A stretch of 31,107 nt of DNA from IMG/VR virus record IMGVR_UViG_2693429768_000006; one strand, written 5' to 3'. Numbering within the stretch: position 1 is the stretch's first letter; each line of letters begins with the position of its first letter. A program made the translations under genes and the position numbers. The notes beneath the pieces were generated by a model. The model searched no databases. It saw nothing but the letters and a program-made list of their open reading frames with translations, and was not told the DNA's origin. This stretch comes from a virus. Lineage: Duplodnaviria; Heunggongvirae; Uroviricota; Caudoviricetes. Below, in pieces: positions 1 through 11,900 of the stretch.

Positions 1-171
1 TCAATAAATCCCATCATTGCGATCAACCTCATCCTTAACCATTGATGCGAGCAGTTCTTCCAGTTTCTGCGCTGATAGCTTTACCTGGTGATCTTCAGCA
101 TCTTCCCGGGCTATTGTGGTTCGCGCAGTGGCTGATTTTGCTGACATCACCACAGGGGGCAGACGGACCAT
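1..171 (-). CDS. hypothetical small protein (56 aa from the Met with a GGAGG Shine-Dalgarno; the ORF-track version is 1..282)
   Basis: Minus-strand ORF ending in a stop at the window edge; internal ATG at 171 is preceded by GGAGG about 10 nt upstream. No family recognised. Confidence 0.2.
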   Translation of the reverse strand: MVRLPPVVMSAKSATARTTIAREDAEDHQVKLSAQKLEELLASMVKDEVDRNDGIY

Positions 172-237
172 TGAACCATGGCCTCCGGAACAAATAAGGG
201 CAAAAATAACAACCACTATCGAAAGCTCACAAACTAA

Positions 238-271
238 CCGCAGCACGTTCCTGCATACGACGTGTCTGCGG
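238..271. repeat. hairpin module downstream of tfa stop (copy 1 of 3, imperfect)
   Basis: CCGCAGCACG...CGTGTCTGCGG inverted repeat directly after the tfa stop; near-identical modules at 1288..1320 and 5218..5250. Confidence 0.5.
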
Positions 272-285
272 CATAATCCCAATGA

Positions 286-555
286 TTACTCCCTGACAGG
301 ATTTGCAGGCCACTCAATATCAGGTGCAGTTGATGTATCAACACGATTCAACAATACCCGATATTTATTCCATGCCTCCAGCAACGATCTTTCTTCCTCC
401 GTTGCGATTTCCAGATCTACAGCATCCTGCAGTGGCGCAATATACTCACTGAATTCCTGGATGTAGAACTGTGTGGTGACGGTCTTCCAGCCATTCGGCT
501 CCTGCTGTATCGAAGCATACCAGGCTATTTCAATATCGCTATGCTGCGGCAGCAT
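286..555 (-). CDS. tfa: tail fibre assembly protein, C-terminal domain only (Tfa-like, 89 aa, probably a remnant)
   Basis: Translation ends ...[37 protein letters not shown], the conserved C-terminus of lambda/Mu-type tail fibre assembly proteins; about half the length of the intact tfa genes at 2771..3298 and 3329..3862. Confidence 0.55.
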
Positions 556-563
556 TTAACCCC

Positions 564-592
564 TTGTAATTCATCGCCATAATTGATTTAAT
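564..592 (+). promoter_or_regulatory. candidate sigma70 promoter for the methyltransferase gene
   Basis: TTGTAA, 17-nt spacer, TTTAAT in an AT-rich spacer 20-50 nt upstream of the ATG; read by eye only. Confidence 0.25.
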
Positions 593-611
593 TCACAAAT
601 AAAACTATAAC

Positions 612-1280
612 ATGGTGAAATCAATGAAAAAAAACACAGATGATGGGGCTAAAATTTACACACCACTTACCCTAAAGCTTTATGACTGGTGGGTTTTGGG
701 AGTATCAAATCGGCTTGCATGGGGATGTCCTACAAAGGAACACCTTCTTCCACACTTTCTGGAACATGTAGGTAACAACCATCTGGATATTGGTGTTGGA
801 ACTGGGTTTTACCTTACTCACGTACCTGAGAGTAGTCTGATATCTTTAATGGATTTGAACGAAGCTAGCCTGAACGCGGCATCTACAAGGGCTGGGGAAT
901 CAAAAATTAAACATAAAATTAGCCATGATGTTTTTGAACCTTATCCCGCGGCGTTACATGGTCAATTTGATTCCATTTCCATGTTTTACCTTCTTCACTG
1001 CCTGCCTGGAAATATATCTACAAAAAGCTGTGTAATACGCAATGCGGCGCAGGCCTTAACTGACGATGGAACTCTATACGGAGCCACAATTCTTGGCGAT
1101 GGAGTTGTGCACAATAGCTTCGGTCAAAAACTGATGCGCATTTACAATCAGAAAGGCATCTTTTCAAACACAAAAGATTCCGAAGAAGGCTTAACACATA
1201 TACTCTCAGAGCATTTCGAGAATGTTAAAACCAAGGTTCAAGGTACTGTAGTAATGTTTTCCGCTTCAGGGAAAAAATAG
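612..1280 (+). CDS. class I SAM-dependent methyltransferase (moron; substrate unknown)
   Basis: 222-aa ORF with a Rossmann motif I, LDIGVGTGF, followed by an acidic residue (SLMDLNE). No DPPY/NPPY DNA-methyltransferase motif. Markedly AT-rich versus flanking phage genes. Alternative start at ATG 624 (MKKNTDD) has a better SD-like GGTGA. Confidence 0.75.
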   Translation: MVKSMKKNTDDGAKIYTPLTLKLYDWWVLGVSNRLAWGCPTKEHLLPHFLEHVGNNHLDIGVGTGFYLTHVPESSLISLMDLNEASLNAASTRAGESKIKHKISHDVFEPYPAALHGQFDSISMFYLLHCLPGNISTKSCVIRNAAQALTDDGTLYGATILGDGVVHNSFGQKLMRIYNQKGIFSNTKDSEEGLTHILSEHFENVKTKVQGTVVMFSASGKK

Positions 1281-1287
1281 CATCCAA

Positions 1288-1320
1288 CCGCAGCACGTTC
1301 TTGCTTAAGACGTGCTGCGG
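1288..1320. repeat. hairpin module (copy 2), between convergent methyltransferase and tfa remnant
   Basis: CCGCAGCACGTTCTT-GC-TTAAGACGTGCTGCGG, about a 14-bp stem; no U-tract on either side. Confidence 0.6.
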
Positions 1321-1478
1321 CATAATCCCAATGATTACTCCCTGACAGGGTTCGTAGGCCACTCAATATCAGGTGCAGTTGATGTATCAACACGGTTCAG
1401 CAACACCCGATACTTTTTCCAGGCTTCCACCACCAGCACGACAAGATGCCGCATACAGTGAACCAGTCAGTCCAGTTT

Positions 1479-1685
1479 TCAGACAACCAGTGCGTCACCT
1501 TTTTGAAGGCGCTTTAAAGCACGTTTTAATCCAGGTCGGCCTGTCCTTGTTCCGCTTAATTTATCTTCAAATATTTGTTCATATCCTGCACAAACAAGAG
1601 CGTTTCGTTGCAGATCTGTATTCTGGTCATTTGTTGATACCCTTACATAGCCAATCAGCACGCTGAATCTCCCGTCCAAAAGCAC
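1479..1685 (-). pseudogene. pin: serine DNA invertase (Pin/Gin/Hin/Cin family) 5' fragment, truncated by nonsense codons and fused to a tfa 3' remnant
   Basis: Translation ...VLIGYVRVSTNDQNTDLQRNALVCAGYEQIFEDKLSGTRTGRPGLKRALKRLQKGDALVV* matches the invertase N-terminus including the catalytic Ser region, then stops where Pin continues VWKLDRLGR. Downstream sequence switches to tfa 3' coding ([30 protein letters not shown]). Confidence 0.8.
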
Positions 1686-1715
1686 AAATCATGCCATACA
1701 GGCCAGAAACCGCCA

Positions 1716-1741
1716 TTATCTAAAACCTCGGTTTACAGGAA
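1716..1741. other. gix/pix-like 26-bp invertase crossover site (site L)
   Basis: TTATCTAAAACC-TC-GGTTTACAGGAA; two 12-bp half-sites around a 2-bp core, close to the Gin gix site as recalled from memory. Inverted relative to sites M and R. Confidence 0.7.
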
Positions 1742-1786
1742 ACGGTAAACAAGGCTGGTAACGCCGTTCAGCGTTCCGGCGATAAA

Positions 1787-2755
1787 ATGACCGGAGAACT
1801 GAAAATTGGCACGGTGAATGCGCTGCGAATTTTCAATGATGCCTTCGGTCTTATTTTCCGTCGTTCAGAAGATTTTCTTCATTTCATTCCGACGGCTGAA
1901 GGACAAGGCGAAAACGGTGATATAGGCCCATTAAGGCCATTCGCTATAAATCTGAGAACAGGTGCTATATCTGTCAGCCACGGGGCCAAAATTGATGGTG
2001 GGCTGGCGCTTGGTACAGATAACGCACTGGGCGGTAATTCCATTACTCTCGGAGATAACGACACTGGTATTAAACAGGGCGGCGACGGTGTCCTTTTATT
2101 CTATTCAAATGGACAACTGGCATTTGGACTTCAACCCGCATCTGCTGATTTTTATAAGCGGGTTGCATATATTCATCAGGGAATAATTCCTGATGGAAGT
2201 GGCGCATTTGCAGACCAGTTGAATAATGCCACCGCGCCTTTTGTTCAGACGCAGTTTGCCTGGAATCCCACTCCTGGTGGTCATTACGTGCCGATAGTTA
2301 AGGGCTTGTCCATTCGCAATGGACAGGGCTATCCCGGCGCGGTCAGCTTTGGGTATTTACTGACAGAACAGTATGGATTTCCGGTTCCATGTATTCATAT
2401 GCGTGGCGATGGCGGTAATGATGCTTTATGGCAGTTTAACCCGAACGATAAATCCTTTATTTCACCGGGTGCTCTTATTGCGGGTGGCGTCCGTTATAAC
2501 ACCGATGGAAATATATTTGGTGGGTGCTGGGGTTCAAACTTAAATGATTACCTGAATAGTTCTTTTATCAGAAATGTGCGTCTGGGAGGCAGACGTTCTG
2601 ACACATTATATCGCGGAGGACTTTGCGAACCAGGTAATGGTCATGTGACAACAGGATTGCAAATTATTGGTGAGGTTGATGGAGATGACTGGATGGTGTC
2701 ACGACCACTACAAAAATACATTTCTGGTAACTGGTATAACGTTGAACAGGCATAG
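1787..2755 (+). CDS. alternative side-tail-fibre C-terminal (variable) segment Sv', promoterless; frame is open from 1724
   Basis: Shares the GGNSI(T/V)LGDNDTG(I/F)KQ(G/N)GDG motif and C-terminal QKYIxGxWYNV with the other variable segment. The frame is open upstream to a TAA at 1721-1723 inside site L and reads L-G-L-Q-E across the crossover core. Confidence 0.7.
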   Translation: MTGELKIGTVNALRIFNDAFGLIFRRSEDFLHFIPTAEGQGENGDIGPLRPFAINLRTGAISVSHGAKIDGGLALGTDNALGGNSITLGDNDTGIKQGGDGVLLFYSNGQLAFGLQPASADFYKRVAYIHQGIIPDGSGAFADQLNNATAPFVQTQFAWNPTPGGHYVPIVKGLSIRNGQGYPGAVSFGYLLTEQYGFPVPCIHMRGDGGNDALWQFNPNDKSFISPGALIAGGVRYNTDGNIFGGCWGSNLNDYLNSSFIRNVRLGGRRSDTLYRGGLCEPGNGHVTTGLQIIGEVDGDDWMVSRPLQKYISGNWYNVEQA

Positions 2756-2770
2756 CCATCAGGAGAATAT

Positions 2771-3298
2771 ATGCAACATCTGAAAAATATTACCGCCGGA
2801 AACCCCAAAACCATTGAGCAGTATCAGCTTACGAAAAAAGCTGGCGTTATCTGGCTATATACAGAAGACGGTAAAAACTGGTATGACGAATTAAAAAACT
2901 TTCAGGATGATACTTTAAAAATAGCTTATGACCAGAAGGGGATTATTCGTTGTATTGAGAAAGACGTATCAACACTTAACCCTGACGGGTTAAGTGTTGT
3001 TGAGTTACCGAATATAACAGCCAACCGTCGCGCCGATATCTCGGGAAACTGGAAGTTTCTGGATGGTAAAGTAGTAAAGCGGGAATATACAAAACAGGAA
3101 CTGCAACAGCAGGCAGAGTTACAAAAAGCCGCTTTGCTTTCCGAAGCGGAGTCTGTGATTCAACCGCTGGAACGTGCTGTCAGACTGAATATGGCAACTG
3201 ATGAGGAACGCACACGACTGGAATCATGGGAACGCTACAGCGTTATGGTCAGCCGTGTGGATACTGCAAAGCCTGAATGGCCACAGAAACCAGAATAA
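2771..3298 (+). CDS. tfa: tail fibre assembly protein (cognate to Sv')
   Basis: 175-aa ORF with the Tfa N-terminus (MQHLKNI..., GVIWLY) and conserved C-terminus ([26 protein letters not shown]). Confidence 0.85.
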
Positions 3299-3304
3299 CA
3301 ACAA

Positions 3305-3329
3305 ATTAAGGCCCGTACGGGCCTTTTCT
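3305..3329. terminator. bidirectional hairpin between the convergent tfa genes
   Basis: AGGCCCGTACGGGCCT palindrome with T-rich sequence on both sides. Confidence 0.45.
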
Positions 3330-3862
3330 TATTCTGGTGGTTCCGGGAATGTTACAGGAAGAACCGAGGTATCAGTTGTCTCAACCTGTTGCACGTATCG
3401 CATCCAGTTCATCAGTTGCTGTCTGTCTGAATCAGTGATAATCCCCAAAGTAAGCTGTGTTTGCCAGAACTGCGTTTTTTCTCTGGCCTGCTGTAATAAT
3501 ATTTTTTTCTGGTTTTCCGTCTGTAGGCGCAACTCTTCTTCGGTATATACACGTTTAATGACTGCGCCATCTTTAAACATCCATTTACCTGAGTCGTCAG
3601 CACGCCGGTTGGCGGTAATATCAGGAATCTCAACGACGCTATAACCTTCAGGGTTAAGTGTGGAGGCATCTTTGGTTATGGCAACAATAATATTATTTTC
3701 ATCGTAAACAATCTTTATGGTGTCTGGCTGAAAGTTTTTCACTTCCTCATACCAGTTTTTTTCGTCCTCAGAGTAAAGCCAGATAACTCCGTGTTTCTTT
3801 GTTAACTCATACTGTTCCAGTGTTTTAGCATTACCCGCTTTTATGTTCTTTAAGTGCATCAT
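3329..3862 (-). CDS. tfa: tail fibre assembly protein (cognate to Sv)
   Basis: 177-aa [17 protein letters not shown]...GVIWLY..., same family as 2771..3298 but a divergent C-terminal half. Confidence 0.85.
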
Positions 3863-3863
3863 A

Positions 3864-4649
3864 TTAAACGCTCGCTACATTATACCAGGTGCCATTTATA
3901 TACTTTTGAACGGGTCTGTAATAAACGCCCGCTATATTATCGGCAGAGTTAGACCCTGTATCCTGAACATTAATACCAGACAATACATGACCTGAAGGGC
4001 ACCGGAAATACCATGTTTGCCAGTTGTTCACTCCATAATATTGCTGTGAACCAAGTCGAACATCTTTCACATAACGGGAATCAAAGTTACCGTAATCCGA
4101 GGGGTTAACACGCCCTGTAATATTTATGGTTTTATTACTTTGAATGCTTCCGGAGACAAAGCGCATAACATGGACGTTATTAGCATAAACATCCAGATTA
4201 CCATCGCCATTTTGTTTAAAGCCCGTGTCATTATCACCCAATACAATCGAATTACCGCCAAGAGCACTGGATGTTCCGATACCCAGTGTACCATTCAGTT
4301 GACCACCAGATAACGGCAGTGCACCAACATCTCCTGCTGAAGGTTTTCTGGTGGTGGTGTAAAATTCGGACCAGTCGGCTTCAAAACCATAACCATCACG
4401 GGCTGAACGATAAAAAACACCGCCATTTTTATAATTAATCCGAAACTGAGCTGCAGGACAACTTCCTTCTCCCATATAAAAATGAATAATTAACGTTGAT
4501 GCACCACTAATAGTTGCGTTATAGGCTCCGCTACTCCAGTTCCATCCAACTGCTTTATCATTCGCAACGGTGCTTCCTGTTTTCCCTAAGGCAAACGCAC
4601 CAACATGACTTGCTTTTAATGTGATATCGGAGGAACCATCAAAAGCCAC
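3864..4649 (-). CDS. side-tail-fibre C-terminal (variable) segment Sv, complete copy; frame is open up to 4814
   Basis: Identical to stf residues about 646-827 and then continues about 88 aa further ([14 protein letters not shown]...YNVASV). The frame is open upstream to an in-frame TAA within site M. Confidence 0.7.
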
Positions 4650-4813
4650 ATTGCTTATTTTCCTGGCAGTTTTTAATTTTGCAGCTGTAGAAGCATTGCC
4701 GGATAGTTCACCAGAAAGGCCACCGCTGAATGTTTGTCGATTAGTCCAGGTATTCGCTGTACTGAGTAACGGTATTTTCTCCCCGCTTGTGCCGAGTTCT
4801 CGTAAACCGAGGT
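4198..4813. repeat. direct repeat copy A (about 615 bp), identical to 5645..6259
   Basis: Aligned by eye at both ends and internally; diverges from copy B just right of the crossover core. Confidence 0.85.
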
Positions 4814-4822
4814 TTTAGATAA
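4797..4822. other. gix/pix-like crossover site (site M)
   Basis: TTCTCGTAAACC-GA-GGTTTTAGATAA; same orientation as site R, inverted relative to site L. The distal half carries the in-frame TAA. Confidence 0.7.
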
Positions 4823-4852
4823 TGGCGGTTTCTGGCCTGTATGGCATGATTT

Positions 4853-5059
4853 GTGCTTTTGGACGGGAGATTCAGCGTGCTGATTGGCTATGTAAGGGTA
4901 TCAACAAATGACCAGAATACAGATCTGCAACGAAACGCTCTTGTTTGTGCAGGATATGAACAAATATTTGAAGATAAATTAAGCGGAACAAGGACAGGCC
5001 GACCTGGATTAAAACGTGCTTTAAAGCGCCTTCAAAAAGGTGACGCACTGGTTGTCTGA
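4853..5059 (+). pseudogene. pin: serine DNA invertase 5' fragment (second copy, identical); likely GTG start at 4877 with a GGGAGA Shine-Dalgarno
   Basis: Identical 68-codon frame to 1479..1685; followed at about 5111..5203 by the tfa 3' remnant and at 5218..5250 by hairpin copy 3. Confidence 0.8.
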
Positions 5060-5261
5060 AAACTGGACTGACTGGTTCACTGTATGCGGCATCTTGTCGT
5101 GCTGGTGGTGGAAGCCTGGAAAAAGTATCGGGTGTTGCTGAACCGTGTTGATACATCAACTGCACCTGATATTGAGTGGCCTACGAACCCTGTCAGGGAG
5201 TAATCATTGGGATTATGCCGCAGCACGTCTTAAGCAAGAACGTGCTGCGGTTGGATGCTAT

Positions 5262-5643
5262 TTTTTCCCTGAAGCGGAAAACATTACTACAGTACCTTGA
5301 ACCTTGGTTTTAACATTCTCGAAATGCTCTGAGAGTATATGTGTTAAGCCTTCTTCGGAATCTTTTGTGTTTGAAAAGATGCCTTTCTGATTGTAAATGC
5401 GCATCAGTTTTTGACCGAAGCTATTGTGCACAACTCCATCGCCAAGAATTGTGGCTCCGTATAGAGTTCCATCGTCAGTTAAGGCCTGCGCCGCATTGCG
5501 TATTACACAGCTTTTTGTAGATATATTTCCAGGCAGGCAGTGAAGAAGGTAAAACATGGAAATGGAATCAAATTGACCATGTAACGCCGCGGGATAAGGT
5601 TCAAAAACATCATGGCTAATTTTATGTTTAATTTTTGATTCCC
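5262..5643 (-). pseudogene. methyltransferase 3' fragment (residues ~96-222), inverted duplicate of 895..1280
   Basis: Translation ESKIKHKISHDVFEPYPAALHGQ...SASGKK is identical to the C-terminal part of the 612..1280 product. The ORF-track N-terminal extension (5644..5740) is stf DNA read out of frame. Confidence 0.8.
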
Positions 5644-8135
5644 ATACCATCGCCATTTTGTTTAAAGCCCGTGTCATTATCACCCAATACAATCGAATTA
5701 CCGCCAAGAGCACTGGATGTTCCGATACCCAGTGTACCATTCAGTTGACCACCAGATAACGGCAGTGCACCAACATCTCCTGCTGAAGGTTTTCTGGTGG
5801 TGGTGTAAAATTCGGACCAGTCGGCTTCAAAACCATAACCATCACGGGCTGAACGATAAAAAACACCGCCATTTTTATAATTAATCCGAAACTGAGCTGC
5901 AGGACAACTTCCTTCTCCCATATAAAAATGAATAATTAACGTTGATGCACCACTAATAGTTGCGTTATAGGCTCCGCTACTCCAGTTCCATCCAACTGCT
6001 TTATCATTCGCAACGGTGCTTCCTGTTTTCCCTAAGGCAAACGCACCAACATGACTTGCTTTTAATGTGATATCGGAGGAACCATCAAAAGCCACATTGC
6101 TTATTTTCCTGGCAGTTTTTAATTTTGCAGCTGTAGAAGCATTGCCGGATAGTTCACCAGAAAGGCCACCGCTGAATGTTTGTCGATTAGTCCAGGTATT
6201 CGCTGTACTGAGTAACGGTATTTTCTCCCCGCTTGTGCCGAGTTCTCGTAAACCGAGGTATTCGATAACGGCGGCAACGGTCGATTTCGCAAGAATATCC
6301 CGCCCAACTTTTGTCAGGGTTGCCAGACTGGCAACATCATTCCCCGTAAAATACGGAAACCTGTCTGCCGCAGTAGCAAGCCCGGCCAGCGCCGTCAGGG
6401 TGGCATCTTTCGGTTGCTTACCCGCAAGCGCGTTAGTCATGGTGGTCGCAAAATTCGGGTCGTTGCCCAACGCCGCAGCCAGCTCGTTCAGCGTATTCAG
6501 TGCGTCAGGCGACGAGTCCACGAGGGCAGCGATCGCAGCCATAACATAAGCCGTGCTTGCGATTTGGGTATTATTCGTTCCCTGTCGCGCAGTTGGTGTT
6601 GTTGGCGTTCCGGTCAGTGCAGGACTATTTAAGGGCGCTTTCTTGTTCGTTTCACCCATTACCGCCTTAACCGCTTTTGGCGTTGCCGCCAGTGACTCGG
6701 AAGTGCTGTTGGTCGCACTGCTGAGCTGTACTATCCCCTTTTTCGTCGTGCTCGCATCCTCCAGCGCCACGGCGGATGCAATATCCTCTGCCCGTTTTGC
6801 TGCTGTCTCGGCGCGCGTTGCCGCGGATTCCGCCGTACTTTTGCTCTGAGCTGCCGCCGTCACACTACCAGCTGCCTCTGATGCTTTCATTGTTGCTGTC
6901 GTGGCACTACCTTTCGCTGCTGACGCTTGTCTGGTCGCCTCATCTTTTGAAGCAGACGCAGATGATGCCGATGACGCCGCTGAACTGGCTGACGATGCGG
7001 CTGCCGCCTTAGAGGAAGCAGCATTGTCTGCTGAAGTCTTTGCATTTGTTTCAGAGGTTTTTGCTGCAGAAGCAGACCTCGCTGCTGCAGTGGCTTGCTC
7101 AGTGGCTTTGCCAGCCTTCGTTGTGGCTGTTGAAGCGGATGATGCGGCGCTTTCTGCCGATTTTCCGGCGGCGGTGGCACTGGCTGAGGCCTGCCCGGCA
7201 CTTGTTGACGCGGCACTGGCAGACGACGCAGCCGCTGTTTTTGAGCCTGCCGCAGCCGAGGCGCTCTGTCCCGCTGCCGTTTCAGAAGACCTGGCGTTTG
7301 TCTCAGACGTCTTTGCCGCCTTCGCGGAATTGCCTGCCGCCGTTGCCGAGGAAGCGGCACTACTGGCGCTTGATGATGCGTTCGTTTCTGATGATTTCGC
7401 TGCCTCTTTTGAGGCCGCCGCACCCCGTGCCGAGGTGGCAGCTTCTGACGCCTTCGTGGTCGCTGTGGATGCAGAAGTGGCTGCCGATTTTTGTGATGCT
7501 GCGGCATTCGTTTCTGACGTTTTCGCGGCACTGGCGCTGGTAGCTGCCGCGCTTTTTGATGACTCTGCAGCAGCAGCACTTTTTGCTGCTTCACGGGCCT
7601 TTGTCGATGCCGTTCCTGCGCTGGAAGACGCTGACTGAGCCGACGACGCGGCCTGTCCGGCTGACGTGCTGGCGGCACGTGCTGAGGCTGCAGCATCGGT
7701 TGCATGAGTTGCCGCCTCGCTGGCTGATGCACTGGCATCGCTGGCTGATTTTTTCGCGGCTGCCGTATTCTGTGCAACCGCGGAGGCGTTACGTGACACC
7801 TCTTCCACCATCTGCTCAAAGCGGCGCAGTGCCTCCGGTCGGACATCATCCTCCGTCATGGCACCGAGAAAATCATTCAGCGTACCTGGTCTGGAACCTT
7901 CATAGACGGTAATGGTCCCGGCATGTGAAGGCGGAAAACCTTCAACCAGCAGGGTGACGCTGTACTGACCATGCTCAACATCCATGCTGTAACGTCCGGC
8001 TTCATCCGGATTTTCAGAGGCCACCGTGTTCACCACCACCGTGCTGCTGGTTCGTCTGGCCTTCAGCACAATGGTGCAGTTCTGTACTGGTTTTCCTGTG
8101 CCATCTTTAAGCACGCCAGAAATTTTTACTGTCAT
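5628..8135 (-). CDS. stf: side tail fibre protein Stf (lambda Stf homologue), C-terminally truncated in this configuration
   Basis: N-terminus MTVKISGVLKDGTGKPVQNCTIVLKARR... matches lambda Stf, with a long Ala/Ser/Thr-rich central region. The ORF ends ...[15 protein letters not shown] where it joins methyltransferase-derived DNA at about 5644. Confidence 0.85.
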   Translation of the reverse strand: MTVKISGVLKDGTGKPVQNCTIVLKARRTSSTVVVNTVASENPDEAGRYSMDVEHGQYSVTLLVEGFPPSHAGTITVYEGSRPGTLNDFLGAMTEDDVRPEALRRFEQMVEEVSRNASAVAQNTAAAKKSASDASASASEAATHATDAAASARAASTSAGQAASSAQSASSSAGTASTKAREAAKSAAAAESSKSAAATSASAAKTSETNAAASQKSAATSASTATTKASEAATSARGAAASKEAAKSSETNASSSASSAASSATAAGNSAKAAKTSETNARSSETAAGQSASAAAGSKTAAASSASAASTSAGQASASATAAGKSAESAASSASTATTKAGKATEQATAAARSASAAKTSETNAKTSADNAASSKAAAASSASSAASSASSASASKDEATRQASAAKGSATTATMKASEAAGSVTAAAQSKSTAESAATRAETAAKRAEDIASAVALEDASTTKKGIVQLSSATNSTSESLAATPKAVKAVMGETNKKAPLNSPALTGTPTTPTARQGTNNTQIASTAYVMAAIAALVDSSPDALNTLNELAAALGNDPNFATTMTNALAGKQPKDATLTALAGLATAADRFPYFTGNDVASLATLTKVGRDILAKSTVAAVIEYLGLRELGTSGEKIPLLSTANTWTNRQTFSGGLSGELSGNASTAAKLKTARKISNVAFDGSSDITLKASHVGAFALGKTGSTVANDKAVGWNWSSGAYNATISGASTLIIHFYMGEGSCPAAQFRINYKNGGVFYRSARDGYGFEADWSEFYTTTRKPSAGDVGALPLSGGQLNGTLGIGTSSALGGNSIVLGDNDTGFKQNGDGMGIKN
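5645..6259. repeat. direct repeat copy B (within stf)
   Basis: Identical to 4198..4813. Confidence 0.85.
6243..6268. other. gix/pix-like crossover site inside stf (site R)
   Basis: TTCTCGTAAACC-GA-GGTATTCGATAA; the constant-side half encodes V-I-E-Y of Stf and the core encodes L-G. Confidence 0.65.
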
Positions 8136-8159
8136 ACTTTTCCACCAATAAAAAAAGCC

Positions 8160-8191
8160 CGCAGCAGTGACGCCACGGGCTTCAGGACAGT
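8160..8191 (-). terminator. candidate rho-independent terminator after lom
   Basis: Stem AGCCCG/CGGGCT with a 14-nt loop, followed on the minus strand by a 7-U run; sits just upstream of the stf start. Confidence 0.35.
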
Positions 8192-8286
8192 GTAACTTTA
8201 CGTTTCCTCAAACGCAGTTCACCCCATAAGGTGGATGAACCTGCGTATCATAACAATATTTACAGAAGATAAATCGGCGTCTGTTG

Positions 8287-8886
8287 TCAGAAACGGTATC
8301 CGATACCAACAATAAATGCATCCGTTCGCCAGTCGCCACTACCGGAACCTTCATAAGCAAGGTCAATGGTCACGGATTCGGTCGGGTTAAACTGCACGCC
8401 AGCCCCCCACGCCAGAGACGTGTTGCTGTGGCGACCGTCATCACTTCCGGTCAGCACATCGTGCGTTTTCCCCTTGTTGTCAGTTACGCGGAGATAATCC
8501 CCGGAGAAAGTCGACACACGGCTGTAAGCCACACCCGCCATCGCATACGCGCTGAACCATTCATTCACGCGCACAGACGGCCCCGCCATCACGCTGAACC
8601 AGCGGTTACGCACGGAATCTTCATGCCAGCGGGTATCGCTGTAATGCGTTTTTTGCTCATCTTTGGCATTGGCATAACTGAATGACGTCACCAGCCCCAG
8701 CGTGTCCGTAAACTCATAACGGTATTTCACGTTAATCCCGTTCAGATCATCACTACCGGGAACGTTCGTCGAGGCATGGAGATACCCCGCGCTCAGCGTG
8801 GACTGATGTTCTGCTGCACTCGCTGGCGTAGCAGCGGCGACCTGCCAGACTACTGCGGACAAAATAACAGCACATAATTTACGCAT
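8287..8886 (-). CDS. lom: Lom-like outer membrane protein (Ail/Lom/PagC family), moron
   Basis: 199-aa ORF with a signal peptide and C-terminal ...GIGYRF; same position as lambda lom between J and stf. Confidence 0.85.
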   Translation of the reverse strand: MRKLCAVILSAVVWQVAAATPASAAEHQSTLSAGYLHASTNVPGSDDLNGINVKYRYEFTDTLGLVTSFSYANAKDEQKTHYSDTRWHEDSVRNRWFSVMAGPSVRVNEWFSAYAMAGVAYSRVSTFSGDYLRVTDNKGKTHDVLTGSDDGRHSNTSLAWGAGVQFNPTESVTIDLAYEGSGSGDWRTDAFIVGIGYRF

Positions 8887-8910
8887 AATTACCTCTCGCT
8901 TTTCTGCAAT

Positions 8911-8934
8911 AAAAAAGGCGCCATTTCTGGCGCC
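8911..8934 (-). terminator. rho-independent terminator downstream of J
   Basis: GGCGCCA-TTTC-TGGCGCC perfect 7-bp GC stem followed on the minus strand by a 6-U run. Confidence 0.6.
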
Positions 8935-8953
8935 CGTATCTGGGTTATAAAAT

Positions 8954-11900
8954 TCAGCTAATCGTGATGCCTGCAGTGGCTTTCTTCATCACCACAACCA
9001 GCAAATCGCTGATACTTGCTGTGGGATACCAGTTATTTACCAGCCATGCTGACACCGAAAACTCCAGTGTCATGTGACCGTGACCGGCAGGCATATCAAT
9101 AACACCACTGTAAATCAGCGTATTATCCAGCGCGGTACGGTTATAAATTTCAGCACCGTTTTTCCGCACTATCAGACGGCATGAGGAGTAAATATCAGTA
9201 TGCTCTTTCTCATGTTTAGCGCCGCTGAATGCCACCGCCGGAATAACAATCTGCCGGTCAAACGGCTGATCGTCATAAACCCTGACGGTAATGGTTCCTG
9301 ATGGCCACCGCTCCGGTGCACGGGAGTCCCGGGGGAAAGCTTTGCCCACTGTTTTAACGAGATCGCCTTCAATCTGGTTCGCGGACAATTTTCCCAGAAC
9401 CCGACAGTTCTCGTTAATCGTGACGTTGTTGAGCGTCCCGGAGTTCGCATTCACGTTACCGCTGATATCGGCATTTTTCGCCGTCAGCCGCCCGTCCGGT
9501 GTCAGGGAAAATGCCGGAGGATTACCGCCGCTGGTAATGGTGGGAGCCGTCAGATATTTCAGGAACACTTCATTCATAAATATCTGATCGCCCTGACCAA
9601 CAAACATCGGCTTTGTGTTGCCATTCGCAGGATTAATCATCGCAATCCTGTCTGCCGCCAGCAGCACCTGACTCTGCATTCCTGCTGGCGTATTCTCAAT
9701 ACCGGCACCGATACCCGCAATATAAAGGCGTCCGTCCTGCATCTGCTGCAGTTTCACGGCCCACATGCTGTTCAGGTTATTATTTGTATCAACCTGAACT
9801 TTCTGTATCTGCTGGATTGCCGCACTCTGATTTTCCAGTTTTTTATTGACGGTCTGCGTGATTTCATTGCTGACATTCGTAATGGACGTCCTGATTTCAG
9901 CCAGGTCCGGCGCAAGCTGACCGTTATCAATCTGCGTCCACAGCTCCTGGGCCAGATGTGTTTTCCCGATTTCTCCTTTGAAAAAATCCAGGTAACCTTC
10001 CGCATCATCGCTCGCCCGACCGACAGCCTCCACGAATGCCGATTTGCCAACAGTATTCACACTGCGGATATAAAAATAATAATCATGGCCCGGTTTGATA
10101 TTGATACTGGCAGCTATCCAGTACAGCGCCGAGCCAAGATAGCGGGCTGCGGTTTCAACCTGCCTGATATCCGCAATCCGCTTTTCCGAGAACCAGAACT
10201 CAAACTGTACCGTCGGGTCATAAACGGCAAGATGTGGCGTTGCGGTTATCTGAAAATAGCCCGGCGTCAGCTCAATCCGCGACGGTGCTGCCGGTGCGGT
10301 AATCCGGAAGGTGGTGGTGGCAGGTTCACCCTGCTGGCCATAGCTGTTTATCGCCCGCACCGTCAGGGTGTATTCCCCGAGCGGCAGGCCGCTGAAACGG
10401 TGCTCCGTGTCTGCGGTGATGGCGGTGGTCACCAGTCTGGCATCCGTTCCCTTACCACTGGTCAGGCGCAGACTGAAGCGCACACCCTTCACCACCCGCG
10501 GCGTGTCCCATTTCGCCTGCGCCAGATACTGGCCGTCAGCTGCGCTCACCTCCACCGTCAGGTGCTGCACTGCCGGTGGGATGACGCTGTTCAGGGAACC
10601 TGACTGCGGCTCAAAGCGGGCACCGTTATCCACGATGGCTTCTTTTTCCGGTACGTGCTGCACCGCCGTGATGGCAAAGGTGCCGTCCGTGTTTTCCCGG
10701 ATGGAGACACAGCGGAACAGGCGACGGCGCAGTGACGGCAGGGAGAGTCCCCACACCCCGTATGTCTCCACACCATCAGGCAGGGTACTGACCTGTATCC
10801 GGTCCGGCGCGGGGTGTTCGGTGATGTCCACACTCACCGGCTTACCGCTGCCGTTAATCAGGTTCACCGTGGCGGCACCGGTCTCCGGCAGGGTAACCTC
10901 ACGGTCCAGCGTCAGGGTGCGGGTGGCAGCATCAATGGACAGGACACGTCCGCCGGTCAGGGTCCCGGCATAGTCATTATCACAGATTTCAATAATGTCA
11001 CCGGGTGTGTGCCGCAGCCCCTGAGACCCGAGCGTGAAATCCACCGTCTGCGTTTCCAGCAGTTCGGTCTTTATCACCCACAGTCCGGCACGGTGGGCCT
11101 GACCGCGGCTGGTACAGCCGAACGCGTCCATCTTCAGCAGATTGCGCCCGTAGCGCAGTATGGCTTCCGGGTCTTCCACCAGCTCCGTGGAGGTCTGCCA
11201 GCCGTTCTGCGGGTCGGTGTAATTCACCTCCACCGCCGTGTGCCGGTCCTTCAGGGCACTGAAGCTGTAGCGGAACCCCACGCCGTTATCATCCACCACC
11301 ACATCGCTGTTGGTGTACGGCCACACCACATCCGACAGGCGGTCCTGAACAAACGTCAGCATCTGGCCGTTCCATACCGGCATACAGCGCATCGCCGAGC
11401 AGAAATCACTGAGAACATCCCACGCCTTACGCTGTTGTGCCAGGTACGCATTGAAGGTCATCCGCGGCTCGGTGCCCCCGAAGCCATCCGGCACCATCTG
11501 GTCGCAGTACTGCCCGATGGCATACAGCGCCCACTTGTCCACATCCGCCGCCCCCAGACGTTTTCCCATGCCGTAGCGCGGGTGAGTCAGCATGTCCCAC
11601 AGACACCAAGCCGGATTGTTGCTGTATGCCGGTTTCAGACTGCCGTCCCAGATACCACTGTACGTGCGTTTTTCCGGGTCATAGTTTGACGGCACCTGGA
11701 TGATGCGACCGCGGATATGGTAGTTCACCGTCATCTGCTGACCACCAAACTGCTCCGCATCCACCTGCATCCCCACAATGGCCGTGTTCGGGTAGCACTG
11801 TTTCACATCGATGATTTCGGTGTATGACGACCACAGCGTTCTGTTCTGCAGCTGGTCCGTGGTGCTGTCCGCCGTCTCCCTGACCATCCGGATGTTAAAG

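What the first reader, a model, noticed from the sequence alone, without database searches (positions are those of the whole stretch)
612..1280. AT-rich SAM-dependent methyltransferase moron beside the tail-fibre switch, partly duplicated into the inverted repeat
The 222-aa product has a clear class I motif (LDIGVGTGF) but none of the DPPY/NPPY or PC-type motifs of DNA methyltransferases, so the substrate is probably a small molecule, protein or RNA. Its base composition is visibly more AT-rich than the phage structural genes, and it has its own candidate promoter. Tail-fibre-distal regions of lambdoid prophages are common cargo sites. Its 3' 385 bp are duplicated in inverted orientation at 5262..5643, which links it to the rearrangement history.
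Basis: partly seen in the sequence, partly recalled or inferred. Interest (0 to 1): 0.5.

Follow-up and report, generated by a model that had tools for sequence, protein, structure and literature searches.

The report
Intact ybcY prophage methyltransferase gene
This is the intact form of ybcY, a named but uncharacterised small-molecule-type methyltransferase gene carried as cargo by lambda-like prophages in about 70% of E. coli genomes; its partial inverted copy belongs to a one-off 1.4-kb rearrangement or assembly error, so the finding is ordinary.

Summary
The ORF at 612..1280 is real. It is the intact allele of E. coli K-12 ybcY (b0562, a pseudogene in cryptic prophage DLP12). The identical protein, WP_000240999.1, is annotated in many genomes, and the gene is present in 3832 of 5426 complete E. 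coli genomes and in 15 phage records. It is a class I SAM-dependent methyltransferase with no DNA-methyltransferase motifs, and its structural neighbours are all small-molecule or lipid methyltransferases. It is under purifying selection (dN/dS 0.1-0.2). It is AT-rich (41% GC against 55%) and runs antisense to the late operon. It lies between two tail-fibre-assembly (tfa) 3' remnants, with a published sigma-70 promoter and a strong hairpin after the stop codon. That makes it a textbook moron. The true start is probably ATG 624 (218 aa). The substrate is unknown, and homologues are stand-alone chromosomal genes across Gammaproteobacteria. The "385-bp" inverted copy is part of an 842-847-bp repeat. 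The window equals the canonical prophage of strain MLI121 plus a 1446-bp block that merges both natural states of the tail-fibre switch through one unique junction. That junction was found in no other public sequence searched. It is either a private replicative rearrangement or a misassembly. Interest is low.

The parts
583..611 (+). Sigma-70 promoter of ybcY: TTGATT (583-588), 17-nt spacer, TATAAC (606-611)
   Evidence: The same hexamers are reported for K-12 ybcY by RpoD-holoenzyme genomic SELEX, where the spacer carries an HNS mark (PMC3946193). They are invariant in 5 alleles including K-12. The consensus scan found a second candidate at 556-583, which is no more than chance expectation.
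612..1280 (+). ybcY-type class I SAM-dependent methyltransferase CDS. It is 222 aa from ATG 612; the likely true start is ATG 624, giving 218 aa.
1288..1320 (.). Strong hairpin 8 nt after the stop codon. It is probably the shared terminator of ybcY and of the tfa remnant on the other strand. Copies lie at about 238-270 and, inverted, at about 5218-5250.
   Evidence: dG -24.2 kcal/mol, z -5.3; repeats D3 and I4.
236..383 (-). Left copy of the roughly 148-bp direct repeat (tfa 3' end plus hairpin) that brackets the methyltransferase cassette
   Evidence: Repeats D2 and D3, 90-91% identical to 1286-1432.
1286..1432 (-). Right copy of the bracketing direct repeat (tfa 3' remnant)
   Evidence: Annotated as a partial tail fiber assembly protein in relatives.
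286..555 (-). C-terminal fragment of a tail-fibre assembly protein, the counterpart of tfaX in K-12
   Evidence: Pfam Caudo_TAP, profile positions 75-130 of 131; K-12 context.
1479..1685 (-). Truncated Pin-type serine invertase (68 aa; N-terminal catalytic half only)
   Evidence: Pfam Resolvase, profile positions 2-69 of 145. Annotated as a short recombinase family protein CDS (183 bp) in relatives.
1710..1741 (.). Recombination site s1 (pin half | Sv2 half)
1787..3298 (+). Alternative tail-fibre C-terminal cassette Sv2 (1787-2755) and its assembly protein (2771-3298)
3329..4796 (-). Tail-fibre assembly protein (3329-3862) and tail-fibre C-terminal cassette Sv1 (3864 to about 4796)
4797..4828 (.). 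Hybrid recombination site s2 (Sv1 half | pin half), which is the site of the flipped switch state
   Evidence: Identical to the site in AR_0069, a strain naturally in the flipped state.
4797..5643 (-). Inverted copy of 895-1741: site half, pin fragment (4853-5059), tfa remnant, and the methyltransferase 3' 386 bp (5258-5643; residues 95-222, with no SAM-binding motif I)
5644..5644 (.). The only novel junction: methyltransferase position 895 (reverse complement), one extra A, then Sv1 position 4199
   Evidence: Absent from 5426 E. coli genomes and from viral and metagenome contigs. The ORFs spanning it are not on record.
5645..6259 (-). Direct duplicate of 4199-4813 (N-terminal part of Sv1)
   Evidence: Perfect over 615 bp.
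6243..6274 (.). Recombination site s3 (Sv1 half | constant half), in direct orientation to s2
5628..8135 (-). Side tail-fibre gene, truncated to 835 aa by the junction (941 aa in MLI121)

Best explanation
The gene is the intact allele of ybcY. It encodes a stand-alone cytoplasmic class I (Rossmann-fold) SAM-dependent methyltransferase carried as a moron by lambda-like prophages.

Shown:
- It is a conserved protein-coding gene under purifying selection, with a complete SAM-binding fold.
- It has no DNA-methyltransferase motifs.
- It lies antisense to the late operon, between two remnants of tail-fibre-assembly genes.
- It has a sigma-70 promoter that was mapped experimentally in K-12, and a strong hairpin after its stop codon.
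- It is present in some lambdoid phages and absent from others.
- Its homologues (50-75% identical) are single chromosomal genes across Gammaproteobacteria.

Inferred:
- It is transcribed in the lysogen independently of phage development and is probably damped by H-NS.
- It transfers a methyl group from SAM to a small metabolite or xenobiotic. The most likely chemistry is O-methylation of an acidic or hydroxyl group, in the manner of juvenile hormone acid methyltransferase (JHAMT), DhpI, BelI or Tam.
- It serves the host rather than the virion.

The substrate is not known.

The inverted partial copy is not a property of the gene. It belongs to a 1446-bp block that joins the two natural states of the tail-fibre switch through one unique junction. 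That block is either a recent two-step replicative rearrangement or a misassembly of a culture holding both switch orientations.
For: Identity:
- 99.0% identical to K-12 ybcY/b0562 in DLP12.
- The gene is 100% identical at the nucleotide level in AR_0069, where, as in MLI121, it is annotated WP_000240999.1.
- Present in 3832 of 5426 complete E. coli genomes and in 15 phage records.
- PHROG phrog_2132, function unknown, E 4e-157.

Fold and class:
- Pfam Methyltransf_12, _23, _25 and _11 above cut-off.
- AlphaFold2 model built on 54 sequences, pLDDT 91.2.
- Best sequence matches in the PDB are JHAMT and UbiG.
- No (D/N/S)PP(Y/F/W) motif and no PC motif.

Selection: dN/dS is 0.20 against a 98% allele and 0.10 against the Citrobacter homologue.

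Moron anatomy:
- GC 41% against 55%.
- Flanking direct repeats of tfa 3' ends.
- Promoter TTGATT-17-TATAAC (PMC3946193; conserved).
- Hairpin with z -5.3.
- Different prophage and integration contexts: ompW, argU/DLP12, and an O157 prophage.

Stand-alone homologues with no shared neighbour across genera.

Rearrangement:
- Window = MLI121 + 1446 bp.
- Segment 1710-5643 is contiguous in AR_0069, which is in the flipped state.
- The junction is unique.
Against: - No substrate, activity or phenotype is known.
- No curated NCBIfam model reaches its cut-off; the best is 18 bits against 180.
- The promoter evidence comes from in vitro SELEX on K-12 DNA, not from transcript mapping in a lysogen carrying the intact gene.
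- The -10 hexamer abuts ATG 612, which implies a near-leaderless mRNA if that promoter is the one used.
Confidence: 0.75

Rival explanations
1. The 1446-bp block (4199-5644), and with it the inverted partial methyltransferase copy, is an assembly or library artefact. Reads from cells in the two switch orientations share the 3-kb invertible segment. An assembler threaded the pin-side flank onto both ends of that segment and closed the path through a chimeric read.
For: - The window is otherwise 100% identical to MLI121, which lacks the block.
- Every adjacency except one exists naturally in state A (MLI121) or state B (AR_0069).
- Both repeat pairs are perfect.
- The single novel junction has no homology, carries one extra A, and occurs nowhere else.
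- The structure truncates the tail-fibre gene. It should also be unstable between 615-bp perfect direct repeats; that last point is inference.
Against: - A random ligation chimera would rarely join two points only 3.3 kb apart in one locus.
- No read data are available here.
- A direct duplication enclosing an inverted duplication is also a known natural product of template switching.
Confidence: 0.5
2. The block is a real, recent, private rearrangement made by a replicative double template switch. The first switch went between the inverted recombination sites s3 and s1, which share their core. The second was non-homologous and returned from methyltransferase position 895 into Sv1. The result is a direct duplication that encloses an inverted duplication.
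For: - The layout is a direct duplicate of Sv1-N flanking an inverted copy that starts exactly in the core of a site.
- The sites share 84% identity over 32 nt in inverted orientation (repeat I3).
- The breakpoints lie close together.
Against: - It was never seen in 5426 complete genomes or in the other collections.
- It inactivates the side tail fibre.
- The 615-bp direct repeats and the directly oriented sites s2 and s3 would both delete it readily (inference).
Confidence: 0.45
3. The protein is a phospholipid (phosphatidylethanolamine) N-methyltransferase of the PmtA type and would let E. coli lysogens methylate PE.
For: - The top Foldseek hit is PE N-methyltransferase 8ys9, E 7e-12, TM 0.62-0.68.
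- There is a weak NCBIfam hit to Legionella PmtA, E 0.0098.
- It is similar in size, about 210-220 aa.
Against: - The NCBIfam score is 15.7 bits against a cut-off of 390.
- Identity is 15-17%.
Confidence: 0.08
4. The protein methylates RNA (for example a tRNA wobble base) or a protein, rather than a small molecule.
Against: - They rank below many small-molecule enzymes.
- No RNA-binding extension or partner is present; Trm112-type partners are absent from the neighbourhoods.
- The sequence-level best matches are JHAMT and UbiG.
Confidence: 0.12
5. The protein is a DNA methyltransferase used by the phage for anti-restriction or epigenetic control.
For: Phages often carry orphan DNA methyltransferases (general knowledge). 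An ENV tripeptide occurs at residue 203.
Against: - No (D/N/S)PP(Y/F/W) motif and no PC motif, and no target-recognition domain in 218 aa.
- PADLOC gave no significant hit.
- Homologues are lone chromosomal genes outside phages.
Confidence: 0.02

Closest known systems
E. coli K-12 ybcY (b0562), pseudogene in cryptic prophage DLP12, between tfaD and tfaX
   Same: Same gene: 99.0% nucleotide identity over the whole CDS. It has the same promoter hexamers and the same position between a tfa gene and a tfa 3' fragment at the tail-fibre-distal end of a lambdoid prophage.
   Different: The K-12 copy has lost 2 nt at the ATG 624 / A8 tract and is a pseudogene. The window copy is intact, like WP_000240999.1 in most E. 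coli. Here the prophage sits in ompW rather than at argU, and the cassette abuts a truncated pin and an invertible tail-fibre segment.
Small-molecule class I SAM methyltransferases: juvenile hormone acid methyltransferase 7ec0/7ebs, UbiG 4kdc, DhpI 3ou2, BelI 9fce, PmtA 8ys9
   Different: Only 13-21% identity. No curated family model is reached. Family-specific invariant residues (YDWWV, W37-x-C39, H129-C130, the YNxKGIF(S)N segment at residues 178-186) are not explained by any of these enzymes. The substrate is unknown.
Phage morons as defined for lambdoid phages (for example lom and bor of lambda); my own knowledge of Hendrix and colleagues' definition
   Same: An extra gene in some but not other related phages, with deviant base composition, its own promoter and terminator-like hairpin, transcribed independently of neighbouring phage genes.
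   Different: lom and bor have known host phenotypes. No phenotype is known for ybcY.
Gin/Cin/Pin/Hin-type invertible tail-fibre switches (Mu G segment, P1 C segment, e14 P segment); my own knowledge
   Same: Two alternative tail-fibre C-termini with their tfa genes lie head to head between inverted recombination sites next to a serine invertase gene. Both orientations are found in nature.
   Different: The invertase is cut to 68 aa, so any inversion must be driven in trans. This window also holds a third, hybrid site and a duplicated flank.

Membership tests
Class I (Rossmann-fold) SAM-dependent methyltransferase superfamily | Glycine-rich motif I (E/DxGxGxG) at the end of strand 1 | tested here: met
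   LDIGVGTG at residues 58-65. D59, G61, G63 and G65 are invariant in 54 homologues. Pfam Methyltransf_12 scores 37.5 bits against a cut-off of 30.
Class I (Rossmann-fold) SAM-dependent methyltransferase superfamily | Acidic residue at the end of strand 2 that binds the ribose hydroxyls | tested here: inconclusive
   D81 ends predicted strand 76-81 and is invariant. No SAM-bound model was made, so the contact is inferred.
Class I (Rossmann-fold) SAM-dependent methyltransferase superfamily | Seven-stranded alpha/beta fold | tested here: met
N6-adenine / N4-cytosine DNA methyltransferases | Catalytic motif IV (D/N/S)PP(Y/F/W) | tested here: not met
   The regular expression finds none in the 222 aa.
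C5-cytosine DNA methyltransferases | PC(Q) catalytic motif together with ENV, plus a target-recognition domain | tested here: not met
   There is no PC dipeptide. A lone ENV at residue 203 lies in the last strands. No DNA methyltransferase is among the best structural matches.
PmtA-type phospholipid N-methyltransferase (NCBIfam NF045882) | Score at or above the curated model cut-off | tested here: not met
   15.7 bits against a cut-off of 390.
UbiE/COQ5, UbiG and RquA quinone methyltransferases | Match to a curated equivalog model, or a quinone-biosynthesis gene context | tested here: not met
   RquA scores 16.9 bits against 175. UbiG matches only at profile E 4e-4. No ubi or men neighbours appear in 80 loci.
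Phage moron | Present in some but absent from other closely related phages | tested here: met
   In one search, 14 of 46 matching phage records cover the gene, while lambda, HK629 and HK630 match only the tfa flank. The protein search found 15 of 50,697 phage records.
Phage moron | Own promoter and terminator, independent of flanking phage transcription | tested here: inconclusive
   The promoter hexamers match the SELEX-mapped K-12 ybcY promoter. A hairpin follows the stop codon but has no U-tract on this strand. The gene is antisense to the late genes. No transcript data exist for an intact allele.
Phage moron | Base composition unlike the neighbouring phage core genes | tested here: met
   41.1% GC against 55.0%.
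Pin/Gin-type invertible tail-fibre switch | Inverted recombination sites flanking alternative tail-fibre ends, with both orientations occurring | tested here: met
   Sites at 1710-1741 and 6243-6274. MLI121 shows state A and AR_0069 shows state B, with reciprocal hybrid sites.
Pin/Gin-type invertible tail-fibre switch | Intact adjacent serine invertase | tested here: not met
   Only 68 aa remain, covering Resolvase profile positions 2-69 of 145.

The most novel reading that the evidence does not exclude
The YbcY family is a conserved stand-alone methyltransferase of Gammaproteobacteria with an unrecognised physiological substrate. One candidate is a stress-related acid or xenobiotic, methylated as Tam methylates trans-aconitate. 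Hints come from its placement after DUF6388, and in some cases DUF892 and Mn-catalase genes, in Pseudomonas, and beside yciGFE and Mn-catalase paralogues in an O157 prophage. On this reading lambdoid phages have spread the enzyme to about 70% of E. coli because it benefits the lysogen.
Probability: 0.15. Interest if true: 0.5.

Novelty: already known. Interest (0 to 1): 0.18.

Why it matters
The gene is very common (about 70% of complete E. coli genomes) yet has no known function. A defined substrate would annotate thousands of genomes and add one more example of prophage cargo that alters host chemistry. As a discovery it adds little, because the gene, its name, its predicted class and its promoter are already on record. 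The practical value here is a caution. The inverted "duplication" around it combines both states of an invertible tail-fibre segment and should be checked against reads before anyone interprets it biologically.

Tried and rejected
- Single-sequence AlphaFold2 gave an unusable model (pLDDT 32.8). It was replaced by the model built on a 54-sequence alignment.
- The afdb50 fold library was not available.
- The BFVD viral fold search returned only generic class I methyltransferases.
- PADLOC gave no defence-system match.
- Rfam found nothing in the window.
- I suspected the window came from "Escherichia phage 204576" (CP025907.1, of similar length). BLAST showed it is a different, related element.
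- I tested whether the gene was captured from a chromosomal ompW/yciGFE-katN neighbourhood. Support is limited to three Pasteurellaceae loci next to ompW, a subset of Pseudomonas loci, and one O157 prophage. No neighbour is shared in Enterobacter, Salmonella, Yersinia, Erwinia, Pantoea or Proteus. I left this as a hint only.
- An unbiased neighbour clustering found only a loosely linked short-chain dehydrogenase in 13 of 80 loci, at a median distance of 1.3 kb. I do not regard it as a partner.
- Literature searches on ybcY, c0651 and WP_000240999 found no functional study.
- Exact-protein look-ups of the two ORFs spanning the junction found nothing.

Full report
**Observation.** The ORF 612..1280 (+) of 222 aa is present and carries motif I, HLDIGVGTGF, at residues 57-66. 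Four Pfam class I methyltransferase models pass their gathering scores: Methyltransf_12 (37.5 bits against 30), _23, _25 and _11. The gene is 41.1% GC (GC3 35.9%), against 55.0% for the structural genes at 8136-31107. The whole tail-fibre-distal region 1-6000 is also 40-48% GC. The inverted duplicate of the 3' end is real, but it is only part of a larger repeat. Positions 895-1736 pair perfectly with 4802-5643 (842 nt). The pairing continues to 1741/4797 with two mismatches that fall inside a recombination site. A 615-bp perfect direct repeat, 4199-4813 = 5645-6259, accompanies it.

**Identity.**
- The CDS is present in 3832 of 5426 complete E. coli genomes, all at 95% identity or more.
- It is 99.0% identical to ybcY (b0562) of K-12 MG1655, a pseudogene in cryptic prophage DLP12 lying between tfaD and tfaX, with appY-ompT-envY beyond.
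- The gene is 100% identical at the nucleotide level in AR_0069. There, and in MLI121, PGAP annotates the product as WP_000240999.1, "class I SAM-dependent methyltransferase".
- Fifteen phage records carry it, among them lambdoid phages 2G7b, ev243, the PhiR series, Kati and Turner.
- PHROGs places it in phrog_2132, function unknown.

So the gene is named and annotated. The literature that mentions it holds no functional study.

**Start codon and promoter.** All 54 aligned homologues begin at the residue equivalent to M5, which is invariant, and the K-12 annotation starts at that ATG (= window 624). Genomic SELEX with RpoD holoenzyme lists a constitutive promoter, TTGATT-17-TATAAC, for ybcY in the ybcY/tfaX spacer, marked HNS (PMC3946193). 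The same hexamers sit at 583-588 and 606-611 and are invariant in five alleles. Because the -10 hexamer ends at 611, ATG 612 would lie upstream of the transcript. The product is therefore most likely 218 aa from ATG 624, which is preceded by a GGTG at 614-617. In K-12 the lesion is a 2-nt loss exactly at this ATG and the following A8 tract. Eight nucleotides after the stop codon lies a strong hairpin at 1288-1320, with dG -24.2 kcal/mol and z -5.3. It lacks a U-tract on this strand but has one on the other, so it is probably the tfa terminator used in both directions (inference).

**What the protein is.**
- An AlphaFold2 model built on a 54-sequence alignment is confident (pLDDT 91.2, pTM 0.87). 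It shows the alternating strand-helix core of class I methyltransferases under two N-terminal helices.
- Foldseek against the PDB puts a phosphatidylethanolamine N-methyltransferase (8ys9), juvenile hormone acid methyltransferase (7ec0), phosphoethanolamine methyltransferases and polyketide C-methyltransferase domains first.
- Profile search of PDB sequences finds JHAMT (E 7e-6) and UbiG (E 4e-4).
- No NCBIfam model comes near its cut-off, and PADLOC finds nothing significant.
- The sequence has no (D/N/S)PP(Y/F/W) motif and no PC motif.
- dN/dS is 0.20 against a 98% E. coli allele and 0.10 against the Citrobacter homologue, so the gene is maintained as a protein.
- Family-specific invariant residues include Y24-D25-x-W27, W37-x-C39, H57, D81, S121/S123, Y126, H129-C130 and the segment Y178-N179-x-K181-G182-I183-F184-x-N186. 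None is explained by a characterised enzyme.

A small molecule is the most likely substrate, but the actual compound cannot be named.

**Distribution and context.**
- Homologues of 50-75% identity occur as single chromosomal genes in Citrobacter, Enterobacter, Salmonella, Klebsiella, Yersinia, Erwinia, Pantoea, Proteus, Morganella, Pasteurellaceae, Pseudomonas, Xanthomonas, Dyella and others.
- The neighbourhoods differ between genera.
- In 80 species-level loci, the Escherichia and Shigella copies lie beside a tfa fragment.
- The three Pasteurellaceae copies lie next to ompW.
- Seventeen Pseudomonas copies directly follow a DUF6388 gene, and a subset of these also has Mn-catalase (four loci) and DUF892 (three loci) genes upstream.
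- Every other genus shares no neighbour.
- An O157:H7 prophage carries the gene next to paralogues of yciG, yciF, yciE and a Mn catalase.

These hints of a link to stress genes are weak, and I list them only as leads.

In E. coli the gene occurs in at least three prophage settings: the ompW prophage next to trp-yciGFE, the DLP12 or DLP12-remnant locus at argU, and the O157 prophage. In all of them it lies between tfa-derived sequences. In the window these are the 148-bp direct repeats at 236-383 and 1286-1432, 90-91% identical. They offer homology by which the cassette can move between lambdoid prophages (inference). The gene runs antisense to the late operon, and it is missing from lambda, HK629 and HK630, which match only the tfa flank. 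This meets the usual description of a moron and rules out a core phage gene.

**The switch and the repeat.** To the right of the cassette lie, in order:
- a 68-aa N-terminal fragment of a Pin-type serine invertase (Resolvase profile positions 2-69 of 145);
- a recombination site;
- two head-to-head tail-fibre-end and tfa cassettes;
- a second site;
- the constant part of the side tail-fibre gene.

Strain MLI121 carries this prophage in the canonical form with a 941-aa tail fibre. The window matches it as follows:
- 1-4828: 99.9% identical, the six mismatches falling where the alignment overruns the breakpoint;
- 5645-10600: 100% identical;
- 4802-5643: the exact reverse complement of MLI121's own methyltransferase-3'/tfa-remnant/pin-fragment stretch.

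The difference in length is 1446 bp.

The site at 4797-4828 is a hybrid of the Sv1-side and pin-side halves. It is identical to the site in strain AR_0069, whose switch is naturally in the flipped state, and window 1710-5643 is contiguous there. So every adjacency in the window exists in nature in one of the two switch states, except one. That exception is methyltransferase position 895 joined through a single extra A to Sv1 position 4199. This junction is absent from all 5426 complete E. coli genomes and from the viral and metagenome contig collections. Neither ORF that spans it is on record. The block truncates the tail fibre to 835 aa. The methyltransferase fragment at 5258-5643 encodes residues 95-222 without the SAM-binding motif, so it cannot be an active enzyme.

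**Two explanations for the block remain roughly equal.**
1. Misassembly. Reads from cells in the two orientations share the 3-kb invertible segment, which lets an assembler place the pin-side flank on both of its ends. A chimeric read would then close the path.
2. A real but private event with two template switches. The first would use the inverted recombination sites (32 nt, 84% identical). The second would be non-homologous. The product is a direct duplication enclosing an inverted one.

If real, the block should be short-lived. The 615-bp direct repeats, or the directly oriented sites s2 and s3, would both delete it and restore the tail fibre (inference). Only the reads can decide. In either case the methyltransferase is a bystander, caught in the repeat because it lies next to the pin-side site.

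**Verdict.** The claimed link to "rearrangement history" rests on a unique and unverified structure. Novelty: already known. Interest: low.

Noticed in passing
window 4199-5644 (equivalently 4814-6259): A 1446-bp extra block relative to the otherwise identical prophage of strain MLI121. It combines a direct duplicate of the tail-fibre Sv1 N-part with an inverted copy of the pin-side flank. It truncates the side tail-fibre gene from 941 to 835 aa.
   Followed up: yes
window 1710-1741, 4797-4828, 6243-6274: There are three Pin/Gin-type recombination sites instead of two. The middle one is a hybrid, identical to the site of the flipped state. Sites two and three are in direct orientation, so an invertase supplied in trans, or RecA acting on the 615-bp repeats, could delete the block and restore the tail fibre.
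   Followed up: partly
window 1479-1685 (-) and 4853-5059 (+); L001 and L017: The invertase next to the switch is cut to 68 aa. Even so, near-identical prophages are found in both orientations (MLI121 in state A, AR_0069 in state B). Inversion must therefore be driven by an invertase elsewhere in the genome, or it predates the truncation. The truncation point abuts the tfa-remnant/ybcY cassette.
   Followed up: partly
window 624-637: The likely start codon is followed directly by an A8 tract (ATGAAAAAAAAC). The lesion that makes K-12 ybcY a pseudogene is a 2-nt loss exactly here, so the tract may be a slippage-prone hotspot.
   Followed up: partly
L019 (E. coli O157:H7 E32511) 4001-7380; L010, L061, L067, L069, L070 (Pseudomonas): In an O157:H7 prophage the methyltransferase is followed by paralogues of yciG, yciF, yciE and a Mn catalase. 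In Pseudomonas the homologue directly follows a DUF6388 gene, with Mn-catalase (and in most cases DUF892) genes upstream in the loci listed. In three Pasteurellaceae it lies next to ompW, which is the gene this prophage integrates into in E. coli. This could hint at a stress-related role or at capture from a chromosomal neighbourhood.
   Followed up: partly
window 5258-5740 (-): A 160-aa chimeric ORF starts in an alternative frame of the tail-fibre duplicate and runs in frame into the methyltransferase C-terminal 128 aa. It lacks motif I and is probably meaningless.
   Followed up: partly
window 6500-7900 (-): The constant part of the side tail fibre holds a long Ala/Ser/Thr-rich low-complexity stretch at 57-60% GC. 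It generates several long spurious ORFs in other frames (for example 6887-7849 and 6901-7638).
   Followed up: no
record coordinates of hits: Many complete-genome records, mostly ST131-type strains, place this prophage within about 6-28 kb of the record start (for example positions 6398, 8067, 10836, 16110, 18826 and 24880). The cause could be a shared reference convention or assembly breaks near this locus; I did not determine which.
   Followed up: no
window 1-282 (-): A 93-aa ORF with no Pfam match. The corresponding stretch in relatives is annotated as a partial DUF4376 pseudogene, about 300 bp from the truncated ompW at the prophage end.
   Followed up: no
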